A stretch of DNA of 64,000 nucleotides from Vulcanimicrobiota bacterium (GTDB lineage: Bacteria; Vulcanimicrobiota; Vulcanimicrobiia; Vulcanimicrobiales; Vulcanimicrobiaceae): the NCBI GenBank assembly GCA_963795855.1, contig CAWCIZ010000001.1, forward strand, positions 64,001 through 128,000. The letters are read 5' to 3'. A program made the translations under genes and the position numbers. The first letter of the stretch is position 1; every line of letters begins with the position of its first letter. The notes under the pieces are model-generated. The model was not told the origin of the DNA. It saw only the letters and a program-made list of their open reading frames with translations, and searched no databases. Of this stretch, positions 56,955 to 61,183 are shown piece by piece.

Positions 56955-57542
56955 TTAGGCCGAAGAAACGGCGAGCGAGAAATCGATGCGGAACAGCCGC
57001 TCGACGTACTCGTACATCCGCGGATCGATGCGCTGGAGCCGCGATCGCGTCGCGCGCGGCCAGAATGATGCTGGATCGTTCGCCTCGACGTACGCGCGAA
57101 CGCTTTCGGCGAAGTACTCATCGCTGCCCGTTGCCGCATACGGCGTGACGAACGCGTTCGCTTCTGCGAAGAGGCGGCGAAGCTGCGGATCGACGCTGGA
57201 ACGGTACACGCCTCCGCCCAGCGCGCAATCGAGTGCGTGTCCGAATTCGTGTGCCACCGTCATCGGACTGCGGGAGCGCAAATACACCGTACGCTCTTCT
57301 ACGACGAAGAGTCCGGCGGGCGGCGCGGGCCACGCGTCAACGTCCACTCCGAGCCGTTTGAGTGCGGGCGATACATCGTCGTACCGCTGCTCGCGCGCGA
57401 GCGGAACGATGCGCGTTCCGCACCGCAGCGCAAATGCAAGCGCGCAGTCTCCGAAGCGCCGCAGGGTCCGAATGATTTCCGGATGCTCTGCCGGCGTGCC
57501 GCCGGTGAGGGCGCAGGCGGCGTCTTGCGTGGACTCGTGCAT
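56955..57542 (-). CDS. ATLF/Pro-Pro endopeptidase-like zinc metallopeptidase
   Basis: HEFGHALD and DEYFAES. Confidence 0.75.
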   Translation of the reverse strand: MHESTQDAACALTGGTPAEHPEIIRTLRRFGDCALAFALRCGTRIVPLAREQRYDDVSPALKRLGVDVDAWPAPPAGLFVVEERTVYLRSRSPMTVAHEFGHALDCALGGGVYRSSVDPQLRRLFAEANAFVTPYAATGSDEYFAESVRAYVEANDPASFWPRATRSRLQRIDPRMYEYVERLFRIDFSLAVSSA

Positions 57543-57633
57543 CGCACGAGGCTCTCACTGTAGTGTTGCGGCGGAATTGCGCCCGGATTGCCCGGTCGTG
57601 TGCTAGAGTGTTAGATCTAAAAGGAGCCGCGTT

Positions 57634-58200
57634 ATGGAATGGCTGCACGATTTAGACGCCGCGCTCGAACGCGCGAAACGGGATTCGAAGTTTGTTTTGC
57701 TCGACGTGTTCAACCCCGGTTGAGGGGGATGCCAAGCGCTGGATACCGTGACGTATCCGCAAGCACCGGTAAGGGACGCAATCGCGCGGTACGCCATTCC
57801 GGTTCAATTCAATAACGCCGAGGAACGGAACGCGAGCGTGCTCGCTCGCATCCATCACATTTGGACGCCCGACGTCCGCGTAATGGCGGGCGACGGTTCG
57901 GAACTCTACCGCTTCGATGGGTTTTTGCCGCCGCCGGAATTTATTGCACGCGTAACGTGCGCATTTGCGTACGCGCTGCTCCGGCTGCGCAAATACGACG
58001 AGGCGGAAGCGGCGTACGTCGACGTGCTCAGCCGCTTTTCAACCTCGTACGCTGCACCCGAAGCGCAGTATTACCTGGGCGTAACGCGCTACCGCCGCGA
58101 TCCGGAAAGTGACGAATTGCTCACGCAATGGGACAAACTGCGATCGCGGTATCCGGCGAGCGAATACCGCGTCAAGCAGTCGTTCAAAGAGCTTCCCTAG
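57634..58200 (+). CDS. Thioredoxin-fold plus TPR selenoprotein (UxxC)
   Basis: AAGGAG RBS, ATG 57634, in-frame TGA 57721 in FNPG-U-GG-C, frame continues into the 57748..58200 ORF. Confidence 0.85.
57735..57762 (+). promoter_or_regulatory. Bacterial SECIS-like hairpin
   Basis: ggatac-cgtgac-gtatcc; loop starts 23 nt after UGA, with G at loop position 2. Confidence 0.65.
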
Positions 58201-59729
58201 GTGCAGCCGTTGGTCGTCAGCAGTACGTAGCCGTCCGTTCCCGTTAAGTGGAGCGGGTTTGTGACCGCGCGCCCCTCGAGGTCGTGATACGCGTGGTTCG
58301 CCGGCAGCGAAACGCTGTACGAACTGCTGTTTGCGTTCACCACGACCATGCCGCCGTTGAATCTGCGCTGGTACACGTTCGGCGCGATTTGCGCGTACGC
58401 GCCGCACGGCGCGCCGTACGTAGCCGTGAAGTCCGGCCGGTACGAGTACCATTCTCCCGTCTGCGGGGAAACGTAGACATCTTCGCCGCCCTCGTTGATC
58501 AACGCGTACGTCGCGAGCGACCAGTCGATTTGCGGCGCTGGAATCGCATTGGGATCGGTGGGGCACGGTGCGTTTCCGTTGAACGGCTGCGTGCCGCCGC
58601 GGCTCGAGCACAAGTAGTCCGTTATCAAGAACGCGACGTGGTGCTGCTGGGCATACTCACCCCACTCGATTGCGAAATTGACGATGCCGCTGCCGGCCGT
58701 TTGATATTTGCCGTAGTCGGTGAAGCCTTGTTCGAAGAGCATACCGTCGGCGTTCGCGAGCATTTGCTGCTCGTTCGGATCCGTCGGCGCATTGTAGAGC
58801 GGGTGATTGATGATCAGTTTGAGGCCGTTGTTGTGCAACTGCTGGCTGACCGCGTGCGTCCAGTTGATCATTGCGGTGATGAACGCCGGATCGTTGCCCG
58901 GCCCGAACAGGCGATGAAAGTTGCCGCTCGTGTCGTATGTGCCGCATCCGTAGTCGCCGCTGACGATCGGTTGCCCGAATTCCGGGTTCCCGCCCTTCAG
59001 GTAGTTGAGCAAGTCGGTGTTGTCGACCGCGAGCGCGTTATATCCGTTCGCTTTCAGATACGGAATCATCAACCCCATCTGATAGTTGATGACGCTGGGG
59101 TTCGTAAAGTCGAGCGGCACTTCAGGGAAGCCCGACGTCGACCACGCCAGCATCTTCGTCGGATTTCCGCCGGAATCGCAGGCGTAGAGAATCCAATCCG
59201 GATGATTGCTCTGCCACCAAGAGAGATTGTGTCCCGAAACGGTATTGTCGTCGTCCACCGGCAGCATGTAGCGTGAAACGATCATGCCGGAATGCGCCGC
59301 GTCCCACGTTCCGGGATTGAACGCACCCCACACCGCGTCTTCGTGCGGCGCTTCGCTGTCGATTTGCGCATTGCTGAGCGGAGCGTGATTCGGGTTGCCG
59401 TCCCAGTCGAAGACTTGGAACAAGCCGAAGCGTCCCGTCGTGTCGGGCAACATCGTGATGCCGCGCCCGGCGGGCGTTGCCGTCGGAATCGGCGTCGGCG
59501 TTTGCATCGGCGTGGCGGTCTGCACGGGGGTCGCCGTAGCTTTGGGCGTGCTCGTTCCAACCGGTGTCGCGGTTGCTCCGGGCGATGAGGTTGGCGGTGG
59601 GCTTCCGCCGCCGCCCGGTGACGGTATCGACGGCGTGCCGCCGCCTCCGCCTCCGCATGCCGTGAGCGAAATGATGAACACGGCGCACGCCGCGGCCGCG
59701 ATATGGCGGGACAGTGTAAGCTTCAGCAC
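58197..59729 (-). CDS. Lipoprotein, putative glycoside hydrolase with Pro/Thr linker
   Basis: LTAC lipobox, TATP repeats, HPDWIL, DFTNP, GYNALAVDN. Confidence 0.65.
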   Translation of the reverse strand: MLKLTLSRHIAAAACAVFIISLTACGGGGGGTPSIPSPGGGGSPPPTSSPGATATPVGTSTPKATATPVQTATPMQTPTPIPTATPAGRGITMLPDTTGRFGLFQVFDWDGNPNHAPLSNAQIDSEAPHEDAVWGAFNPGTWDAAHSGMIVSRYMLPVDDDNTVSGHNLSWWQSNHPDWILYACDSGGNPTKMLAWSTSGFPEVPLDFTNPSVINYQMGLMIPYLKANGYNALAVDNTDLLNYLKGGNPEFGQPIVSGDYGCGTYDTSGNFHRLFGPGNDPAFITAMINWTHAVSQQLHNNGLKLIINHPLYNAPTDPNEQQMLANADGMLFEQGFTDYGKYQTAGSGIVNFAIEWGEYAQQHHVAFLITDYLCSSRGGTQPFNGNAPCPTDPNAIPAPQIDWSLATYALINEGGEDVYVSPQTGEWYSYRPDFTATYGAPCGAYAQIAPNVYQRRFNGGMVVVNANSSSYSVSLPANHAYHDLEGRAVTNPLHLTGTDGYVLLTTNGCT

Positions 59730-59869
59730 GGAGTACCCCTTTTGTTGCGCTTTGAAGTATAAGCGCGCAAGACCCAATTCAGAACGGACGTTCGGACCCG
59801 GAGTCCCGGGCTTTTGCGCTAAGTCATTGTGTCCGCAGCCCTCTACGGGGGTATAGATTTTTGGGGAGG

Positions 59870-61183
59870 GTGCCCACGATCGAGGAACGGTTTGCTTCCG
59901 CGGATCCGCATGCACGCATCGCTGCGGCGGTTTTGCGTTCGGTTTTCGGCGATGCCTACGCACGGCGCTTCGCGATACGGCTCTGGGAAGGGACGCTGAT
60001 TCCCGCGCAGCAGCAGCCCGATTTCACGCTGCTCGTCAATCACCCGGGAGCGCTCCGCACGGCGTTTCGCCCGCCCGTCGATTTGAATGCCGGGCGAGCT
60101 TTTGCCGCTGGGCTGCTCGACGTCGAAGGCGACGTCGAGGCGGCGATTGACGCGATGATGGCTGTGATGCAGCGGCCGGCCATGGGAACGGTGGCGCGTC
60201 TGGGGATGCTGCTCCGGCGCCTGCCCACGGCTCCGCTGCCGGACCTGCGCGAAGCGCACTTGCGCGGCAAACGTCATTCCCTGGCACGGGATCGCGCCGC
60301 GATCGGCTTTCATTACGATCAGCCCGTTCCGTTCTATCGAACGTTTCTGGGCGGGACGCTCGTGTATTCGTGCGCCTATTTCGACGAGGGCGTCGAGACG
60401 ATTGAAGAAGCGCAAACGGCGAAGATCGATCACTCGCTGCGAAAATTGCGATTGCGCCCCGGTGAACGTCTGCTCGACATCGGCTGCGGATGGGGCGCGC
60501 TGGTGGTGCGCGCGGCGCAGGAGTTCGGCGCATATGTTTTAGGCGTGACCCTCAGCGAAAAGCAGTGCGGCGAAGCCGGCGGGCGCATTTCGGCGGCCGG
60601 CGTGAGCGATCGTGCAAGGGTCGAGTGTTGGGATTACCGGCAGCTTCCCGCCACCACGTTCGACAAGATCGTCAGCATCGGCATGTTCGAACACGTCGGA
60701 CGCGAGAAATTGCCCGAGTACTTTTCGACGGCGCATAAGCTGCTCAAAGACGGCGGACTCTTTTTGAATCACGGCATCGCCAATCAGCATCGAACGCAGC
60801 GCGACGGCCGCTCGTCCGGGTTCATGGATCGCTTCATCTTTCCGGACGGCGAACTCGTGAATGTGAGCGACGCGCTGCAATTCGCGGAACGCGCCGGATT
60901 CGAAGTTCGCGACGTCGAGAATCTGCGCGAGCACTACGCGCGTACGCTGCGCTTGTGGGTGCAAAGCCTCGATCGCAATCGCGATGCGGCAATCGCAGTT
61001 GCCGGAGAACAGACGTACCGCGCCTGGCGCCTCTACATGGCCGGAAGCGCGCAAGGATTCCGCACCGGACGCATGGGGCTGTTTCAGTCGCTGCTGGCCA
61101 AACCGCTGCCGAGCGGCGCCGTGCCGGAGGTTCCGCCGACGCGCCGCGACTTGTACGCAGAAGGCGGCGTCCGCGTGGGCTAA
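59870..61183 (+). CDS. cfa: Cyclopropane-fatty-acyl-phospholipid synthase
   Basis: FHYD, YSCAYF, LDIGCGWG, SIGMFEHVG, HYARTL. Confidence 0.93.
   Translation: MPTIEERFASADPHARIAAAVLRSVFGDAYARRFAIRLWEGTLIPAQQQPDFTLLVNHPGALRTAFRPPVDLNAGRAFAAGLLDVEGDVEAAIDAMMAVMQRPAMGTVARLGMLLRRLPTAPLPDLREAHLRGKRHSLARDRAAIGFHYDQPVPFYRTFLGGTLVYSCAYFDEGVETIEEAQTAKIDHSLRKLRLRPGERLLDIGCGWGALVVRAAQEFGAYVLGVTLSEKQCGEAGGRISAAGVSDRARVECWDYRQLPATTFDKIVSIGMFEHVGREKLPEYFSTAHKLLKDGGLFLNHGIANQHRTQRDGRSSGFMDRFIFPDGELVNVSDALQFAERAGFEVRDVENLREHYARTLRLWVQSLDRNRDAAIAVAGEQTYRAWRLYMAGSAQGFRTGRMGLFQSLLAKPLPSGAVPEVPPTRRDLYAEGGVRVG

What the first reader, a model, noticed from the sequence alone, without database searches (positions are those of the whole stretch)
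57634..58200. Hidden selenoprotein: UxxC thioredoxin-TPR with a SECIS-like hairpin
Seen: a strong RBS and ATG begin MEWLHDLDAALERAKRDSKFVLLDVFNPG-TGA-GGCQALD, and the frame stays open to 58200. The TGA sits exactly at the first Cys of the thioredoxin CxxC, and a hairpin with G early in its loop follows at SECIS-typical spacing. The C-terminus is TPR-like (AAPEAQYYLG). The ORF track loses the active site. Inference: this organism decodes selenocysteine.
Basis: partly seen in the sequence, partly recalled or inferred. Interest (0 to 1): 0.8.

Follow-up and report, generated by a model that had tools for sequence, protein, structure and literature searches.

The report
Hidden selenium enzyme of known family
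A stop codon inside this gene is likely read as the rare amino acid selenocysteine, making a small predicted redox enzyme that gene callers cut short; it is real but belongs to a family already predicted in 2006.

Summary
The TGA at 57721-23 sits in U-G-G-C of a 188-aa thioredoxin-fold plus TPR protein. It is TGA in 105 of 105 related loci that cover the site. A 6-bp hairpin 23 nt downstream is paired in 115 of 117 distinct TGA-form variants, with compensatory changes. It is broken in 8 of 8 cysteine-codon relatives. The genome has selA, selB, selD and tRNA-Sec(UCA), plus four more UGA-bearing genes of selenoprotein families. selA and selB each carry a frameshift, but so do 22 of 117 sampled genes, so these are probably assembly errors. 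It is not a new family. It matches the 'thiol:disulfide interchange protein' selenoproteins of Geobacter and Syntrophus listed by Zhang et al. 2006 and in a 2026 inventory. What it adds is a distinct UGGC subclade, common in Vulcanimicrobiota (Eremiobacterota) and truncated by gene callers, and a TPR tail that the family name ignores. This scan noted the same family before on other DNA (e1-4306409). Selenium incorporation, clients and activity are untested.

The parts
57621..57626 (+). Shine-Dalgarno AAGGAG, 7 nt before the ATG
   Evidence: sequence
57634..58200 (+). Full gene, 188 aa when UGA is read as Sec; no signal peptide or membrane segment seen
   Evidence: AlphaFold model mean pLDDT 89.9, pTM 0.86
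57634..57954 (+). Thioredoxin-fold domain (about residues 1-107), DsbD-gamma/DsbH-like
   Evidence: Pfam PF13899 over cut-off; PDB profile hits 2kuc E 3.8e-11, DsbD-gamma E 1.3e-9; DsbH 2ju5 Z 11.1, rmsd 2.4, 112 aligned
57721..57723 (+). In-frame TGA, inferred Sec30, first position of UGGC
57730..57732 (+). Cys33, inferred resolving cysteine
   Evidence: invariant in 80 of 80 unique genes
57741..57758 (+). SECIS hairpin: 6-bp stem GGATAC/GTATCC, loop CGUGAC, loop 23 nt from the UGA
57748..57750 (+). GTG taken as start by gene callers (150-aa truncated product); it lies inside the SECIS loop
   Evidence: 120 of 120 listed closest database proteins are truncated this way
57862..57870 (+). W77-T78-P79, at the position of the thioredoxin cis-proline loop (cis geometry inferred)
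   Evidence: invariant in alignment A1; aligns with the Pro of 2kuc and DsbD-gamma
57931..58158 (+). TPR-like helical tail (about residues 100-175, four helices), YbgF/BamD-like

Best explanation
The gene encodes a 188-residue thioredoxin-fold protein with a short TPR tail, whose in-frame UGA is likely read as selenocysteine, giving a U-G-G-C active site that would reduce disulfides on protein clients. Shown: the frame, the conserved UGA, the conserved 6-bp hairpin 23 nt downstream, the genes for SelA, SelB, SelD and tRNA-Sec, and the two-domain predicted fold. Inferred from the standard bacterial pathway: SelB binds the hairpin loop and delivers Sec-tRNA to the UGA. Inferred from thioredoxin chemistry: Sec30 attacks a client disulfide, Cys33 resolves the mixed bond, and a cytoplasmic reductant recycles the enzyme. 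Inferred more weakly (about 0.6): the TPR helices pick the client or partner. It is a member of the predicted 'thiol:disulfide interchange protein' selenoprotein family, in a separate UGGC subclade.
For: TGA in 105 of 106 loci, the one miss not covering the site; these include the window's own locus and loci found twice. TGA in 80 of 80 unique full-length genes. Codon choice is nearly fixed at conserved residues 31-42 (mean 0.90; 8 of 11 at 0.9 or more) against 0.64 elsewhere (5 of 99), p 1.7e-5, kin not independent. Stem fully paired in 56 of 58 TGA forms and 0 of 8 TGC/TGT forms among 67 distinct metagenome genes. 99.7% of 702 cells paired, 33 with both sides changed, 0 of 500 shuffles as high; slid controls 27-60% paired. 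RNAalifold finds the same stem unprompted. selA, selB, selD and tRNA-Sec present. SelD, FdhA and two peroxiredoxins of this genome also carry one in-frame TGA. 45 of 63 full-length distant homologues have CxxC. All 30 other sampled genomes with the gene have selA. The published members show the same length and motifs by eye; a Geobacteraceae relative aligns at 31% over 181 aa, E 6e-32.
Against: selA and selB are each split by a frameshift in this assembly. The hairpin is not energetically special on its own. Six of the 8 Cys-codon genes went into the tree, and they form one clade, so the Sec-versus-Cys contrast may be a single event. The co-occurrence with selA is weak evidence, since 124 of 151 genomes have selA; within the host family it is 23 of 65 against 0 of 6. 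PF13098, the domain that the review names for the family, scores 24.9 bits, under its cut-off of 27. No conserved neighbour points to a client: best 12 of 74 loci for a real neighbouring gene. 18 of 63 full-length distant homologues lack a full CxxC, so redox activity is not universal in the wider group.
Confidence: 0.88

Rival explanations
1. It is a selenoprotein, but its main job is that of a chaperedoxin like CnoX: the TPR tail holds unfolding proteins while the active site protects or repairs their cysteines.
For: Same domain order as CnoX/YbbN, which is the top Foldseek hit (E 4e-5). Caulobacter CnoX has CXXC and both activities (PMC8129009, passages). No clear CnoX was found in this 86%-complete genome with PF14561 (one weak partial hit).
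Against: TM-score only 0.34, rmsd 11.9. CnoX is about 280 aa with two five-helix TPR subdomains; this protein has four tail helices, which are closer to YbgF/BamD-type TPRs. No chaperone gene is a conserved neighbour.
Confidence: 0.2
2. In this strain the Sec machinery is dead (real frameshifts in selA and selB), so the UGA terminates and the gene is a recent relic.
For: Both genes are split, while the copies fetched from relatives are mostly whole. At the measured rate, both being hit by chance is only about 10% likely (my arithmetic from 0.24 events per kb).
Against: 22 of 117 sampled genes (selA among them; 34 events in 142 kb) are frameshifted in this assembly, including a GyrA-like gene just upstream of selA with two breaks (name recognised from the sequence). 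Both pieces of SelA and SelB keep 51-71% identity to relatives. tRNA-Sec, selD and five UGA genes are otherwise intact. G148 has a selA break at a different site.
Confidence: 0.06
3. The UGA is a true stop and the product is the 150-aa protein that databases annotate from GTG 57748.
For: The GTG is invariant in 80 of 80 genes, and 120 of 120 listed close database proteins start about there.
Against: The 29 codons upstream are conserved and have their own RBS. The short form lacks the first strand, first helix and active site of the fold. The GTG is the SECIS loop and is GTT or GTC in 51 of 58 distant TGA forms. Full-length Cys homologues exist.
Confidence: 0.03
4. The TGA is a sequencing error, or the organism reads UGA as Trp or Cys genome-wide.
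For: The assembly is error-prone. Some database homologues show W at this place (19 rows).
Against: The same TGA is in 105 loci from many assemblies. TGA ends 610 of 1404 frames of 400 codons or more (shadow frames included). The only UCA tRNA is the tRNA-Sec. The W forms share clusters with truncated forms and are probably code-4 gene calls (inference).
Confidence: 0.01

Closest known systems
'Thiol:disulfide interchange protein' selenoprotein family (Zhang et al. 2006, PMC1794560; Table 1 of PMC13188914: PF13098, UxxC, WP_011366075.1, 'predicted with high confidence')
   Same: About 190 aa. Same order of motifs: LLDxFNPG-U-xGC, VxYP, WTP, GFxPP, APEAxY, YPxSxW. Sec at the same position. Metagenome relatives of that type have the same hairpin in the same register.
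   Different: UGGC instead of UIGC. About 31-36% identity. A separate well-supported clade. Hosts are Vulcanimicrobiota, whose one cultured member grows aerobically, rather than anaerobic Geobacter or Syntrophus. No Cys form among 105 loci.
CnoX/YbbN chaperedoxins
   Same: N-terminal thioredoxin domain fused to a C-terminal TPR domain; cytoplasmic.
   Different: About 280 aa with ten TPR helices against 188 aa with four; TM-score 0.34; DsbD-gamma/DsbH-type rather than TrxA-type domain; no Sec form described in the passages read.
DsbD gamma domain and DsbH
   Same: Closest solved thioredoxin-type domains.
   Different: Those are periplasmic or membrane-linked (recalled) and lack TPRs; this protein has no signal or membrane segment.
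NCBIfam VPGUxxT thioredoxin-like selenoproteins (NF041383, NF041382) and TsoB (NF045694)
   Same: Thioredoxin fold with Sec at the first position of the motif.
   Different: Scores 29.8 against a cut-off of 275, and 17.3 against 805; different motif and length.

Membership tests
Thiol:disulfide interchange protein (selenoprotein family) | UxxC motif in a thioredoxin-like domain | tested here: met
   UGGC at residues 30-33; fold
Thiol:disulfide interchange protein (selenoprotein family) | PF13098 domain, as listed in the 2026 review | tested here: inconclusive
   24.9 bits, E 2.7e-5, cut-off 27; the related PF13899 passes at 32.4. UIGC-type relatives mostly carry PF13098
Thiol:disulfide interchange protein (selenoprotein family) | Full-length collinear homology with the Geobacter/Syntrophus type | tested here: met
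   31% identity over 181 aa, E 6e-32, to Geobacteraceae P0132; motifs shared with the three published sequences, judged by eye
Thiol:disulfide interchange protein (selenoprotein family) | Scored alignment or tree placement with the three published sequences themselves | not tested
   They were seen only as text in a supplement. With stored relatives, the UGGC clade is separate from the UIGC group and the backbone is unresolved (45/80)
Bacterial selenoprotein gene (bSECIS model, PMC13188914) | Loop 3-9 nt, stem 4-16 bp, G in the first two loop positions, 16-37 nt from the UGA | tested here: met
   Loop 6 nt, stem 6 bp, G at position 2, 23 nt
Bacterial selenoprotein gene (bSECIS model, PMC13188914) | Folding energy of -7.5 kcal/mol or lower | tested here: met
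   -10.1 for the 40-nt local fold; consensus -8.42; other window choices fold differently
Bacterial selenoprotein gene (bSECIS model, PMC13188914) | selA, selB, selC and selD in the genome | tested here: met
   All four over cut-off; tRNA-SeC(tca)
Bacterial selenoprotein gene (bSECIS model, PMC13188914) | selA and selB reading frames intact | tested here: inconclusive
   One frameshift each, against a background of 22 of 117 genes; no reads to check
Bacterial selenoprotein gene (bSECIS model, PMC13188914) | Selenium in the protein | not testable with these tools
   Needs 75Se labelling or MS
CnoX chaperedoxin | Thioredoxin domain followed by a TPR domain | tested here: met
CnoX chaperedoxin | Two five-helix TPR subdomains, about 280 aa | tested here: not met
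   188 aa with four tail helices; CnoX description
CnoX chaperedoxin | Holdase activity and hand-over to GroEL | not testable with these tools
   Bench assay needed
NCBIfam selenoprotein models (NF041383, NF041382, NF045694, NF041199) | Score over the curated cut-off | tested here: not met
   P0001 far below NF041383 and NF045694, and not listed for NF041382 or NF041199; 17 aligned members give only weak E-values (best 3.5e-12)

The most novel reading that the evidence does not exclude
A selenium-using chaperedoxin of aerobic soil bacteria: the UGGC subclade couples a selenocysteine disulfide reductase to a minimal TPR holdase. It would give an old, untested selenoprotein family a protein-rescue function, in a lineage where selenoproteins are said to be rarely kept.
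Probability: 0.2. Interest if true: 0.55.

Novelty: new member of a known kind. Interest (0 to 1): 0.22.

Why it matters
It fixes a systematic annotation error. All 120 listed closest database proteins lack the active site and many are named 'TPR protein' or 'TolA-binding protein', and no NCBIfam model covers the family. It shows Sec use to be common in Vulcanimicrobiota (selA in 65 of 71 sampled genomes of the host family), although the 2026 review says aerobes rarely retain selenoproteins. The family's activity looks untested, and this subclade has an unusually clean SECIS for a reporter test. It does not add a new selenoprotein family or a new recoding mechanism.

Tried and rejected
Folding energy against shuffles did not single out the hairpin. 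A genome-wide SECIS-plus-motif scan gave 463 hits, mostly in shadow frames and only partly shown, so it was useless as a filter. The promoter and terminator scan found nothing; an extended -10-like TGcTAGAGT at 57601-09 was seen by eye only. Neighbourhood: the six window neighbours tested recur in 8, 0, 0, 0, 0 and 3 of 74 loci, and no operon emerged. No solved structure covers both domains convincingly; structural Z-scores of 10-12 for the helical tail are within the range of common arrangements. Cluster look-ups did not reach the published accession WP_011366075.1. Paper searches: 'Eremiobacterota' + 'selenocysteine' gave 0; 'selenoprotein' + 'disulfide interchange protein' + 'TPR' + 'bacterial' gave 1 unrelated paper; searches listed none on this clade. 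These searches miss subscription journals. BSepDB (PMC13326102) screened 64,762 genomes and may already hold these genes; its database could not be read and its supplement was cut when stored. No complex prediction was run, since no partner was indicated.

Full report
Observation. AAGGAG precedes the ATG at 57634 by 7 nt, the frame meets one TGA at 57721-57723 in NPG-TGA-GGC, and it then runs to TAG at 58198-58200. Read through, it is a 188-aa protein. The mechanical ORF list starts it at GTG 57748 and loses the motif. Pfam finds a thioredoxin-like domain over cut-off and weak TPR matches. The AlphaFold model from a 17-sequence alignment has mean pLDDT 89.9: a thioredoxin fold followed by four helices. 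The closest solved thioredoxin-type domains are DsbD-gamma, DsbH and 2kuc; the closest tails are YbgF/BamD-type TPRs.

Is the TGA real? In 106 loci from two searches (the window's own locus and duplicates included), 105 cover the site and all have TGA. After removing partial and identical genes, 80 of 80 have TGA. The named loci are mostly labelled Vulcanimicrobiota/Eremiobacterota. All 120 listed closest database proteins, the window's own among them, are truncated forms of about 150 aa. Among the best 150 profile hits at 50% clustering, 63 are full length (45 CxxC, 7 SxxC, 4 CxxS, 7 other), 52 are truncated in the same way and 35 are other architectures. So Sec aligns with Cys, as expected of a selenoprotein.

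Is the hairpin a SECIS? By energy alone, no: z-scores are near zero, and a loose scan finds 463 look-alikes in the genome. By conservation, yes. At conserved residues 31-42 the commonest codon is used in 90% of genes on average, against 64% at 99 other conserved residues. In 80 metagenome loci of the distant UIGC type (10 duplicates and 3 without the motif dropped), the 6-bp stem is fully paired in 56 of 58 TGA genes and in 0 of 8 TGC/TGT genes; one TCA gene keeps it. Over 117 distinct TGA variants, 115 are fully paired. Two pairs show changes on both sides (A-U to G-C in 26 sequences, U-A to A-U in 7), 0 of 500 shuffles reach the paired fraction or covariation score, and slid controls are far lower. 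RNAalifold predicts exactly this stem. Against over-reading: kin are not independent, the measure 'pairs with a change on both sides' is not above shuffles (168 of 500), and the 6 Cys-codon genes placed in the tree form one clade. The element meets the bSECIS model as stated in PMC13188914 (passages).

Machinery. The genome (3.06 Mb, 86% complete) has selA and selB side by side on C3, selD, and a tRNA-Sec with a UCA anticodon. SelD (CAG-U-ASK), FdhA (ARI-U-HSS) and two peroxiredoxins (TPV-U-TS, TPG-U-TN) each carry one in-frame TGA with a downstream hairpin. selA and selB are each split by a frameshift. To test whether that is decay, I mapped ORFs from 400 kb of relative G097 onto this genome: 22 of 117 matched genes are frameshifted (34 events in 142 kb), among them selA itself and a GyrA-like gene next to it (name recognised from the sequence, not from a family search). 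The assembly is therefore noisy, and error is the likelier cause. Both genes being hit has only about a 10% chance at that rate, so decay is not excluded. No sequencing run was listed to settle it. Across 151 genomes of the phylum, 124 have selA; all 31 with this gene (G000 and 30 others) are among them. This is weak support given the base rate. The tallies include the unpublished G128, on which no claim rests.

What it is. Supplementary file 4 of Zhang et al. 2006 (PMC1794560; I saw table passages and supplement passages) lists three 'Thiol:disulfide interchange protein' selenoproteins, from Geobacter metallireducens, G. uraniumreducens and Syntrophus aciditrophicus. They are about 190 aa and carry the same run of motifs as this protein, C-terminal helices included. 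I compared them by eye. The bridge by tool is Geobacteraceae P0132, at 31% identity over 181 aa, E 6e-32. The 2026 inventory (PMC13188914; section 7 parts 1-2 of 3 and passages read) lists the family as predicted with high confidence, not experimentally verified. In the tree of 54 rows, the 16 UGGC proteins form their own clade (100/93), apart from the UIGC group, on an unresolved backbone. Two deeper genomes of the phylum (G001, G004) carry the UIGC type. The identical hairpin register in both groups suggests one Sec origin (inference). No NCBIfam model passes cut-off.

How it likely works. Decoding (about 0.9): SelB recognises the hairpin loop and inserts Sec at codon 30. Chemistry (inferred from the thioredoxin family): Sec30 at the start of the active-site helix attacks a disulfide, Cys33 resolves it, and the invariant Pro79 shapes the client groove. 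With no signal peptide it should act in the cytoplasm as a reductase, despite the Dsb-like name. The TPR tail, with invariant residues such as E143, Y146, V150, Y153, Y173 and P174, probably binds a partner or client. The neighbourhood gives no hint: no neighbour is conserved. The architecture recalls CnoX (PMC8129009, passages), but size, helix count and structural fit (TM 0.34) rule out membership, leaving it as a functional analogy at about 0.2.

Novelty. This is a new member, in a distinct subclade, of a known predicted family. My paper searches found no paper on Sec in this phylum or on the family's TPR tail. BSepDB (PMC13326102; passages and a truncated supplement) may already list these genes. 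PMC9758169 (passages) shows that the cultured member of the phylum is an aerobe and does not mention selenium. PMC1914089 (passages) did not bear on the family. Verdict: real, well supported, useful for annotation, not surprising to a selenoprotein specialist. Interest 0.22.

Noticed in passing
G000 C3:126741-128115 and C3:124855-126748 (L001-L003, L010): selA and selB each split by one frameshift (near residues 262-266 and about 385-392); probably assembly errors.
   Followed up: yes
G000, genome-wide: About 19% of sampled genes (22 of 117) are frameshifted in this assembly, so broken genes reported from other windows of this genome should be treated with caution.
   Followed up: yes
G000 C1:137371 (+), C4:303710 (+), C3:379311 (+), C3:569168 (-): Four more likely selenoprotein genes: two peroxiredoxins (TxxU), formate dehydrogenase alpha and SelD. 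The selenoproteome was not surveyed fully.
   Followed up: partly
window 56955-57542 (-): Divergent upstream gene, 195 aa, with an HEFGH zinc-binding motif; Pfam ATLF match below cut-off (26.5 against 27.4 bits). It recurs near the gene in 8 of 74 loci. Probably an ordinary zincin-type protein.
   Followed up: partly
window 58197-59963 (-): 588-aa convergent gene whose stop overlaps this gene's stop by 4 bases. It has a lipoprotein-like N-terminus and a Pro/Thr linker, and no Pfam or NCBIfam assignment beyond a weak repeat hit; it looks like a secreted glycoside hydrolase (impression, untested).
   Followed up: no
L197 (metagenome) and proteins P0125, P0137: SxxC forms of the family; L197 has TCA at the Sec position and keeps a fully paired hairpin, suggesting a recent change from TGA.
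   Followed up: no
proteins P0123-P0131 and others: Database entries with W at the Sec position, probably code-4 gene calls on short contigs; they could mislead motif surveys.
   Followed up: partly
codon 29 in 72 of 72 Gly-containing orthologues (window 57718-57720): The codon just before the UGA is always GGT, although the other conserved Gly codons vary; possibly a context effect on Sec insertion.
   Followed up: no
G000 C1 376618-376700, C3 789913-790005, C4 238581-238666: Three unusually long tRNA calls (Arg 83 nt, Asn 93 nt, Arg 86 nt) duplicating normal isoacceptors; may be false calls or integration remnants.
   Followed up: no
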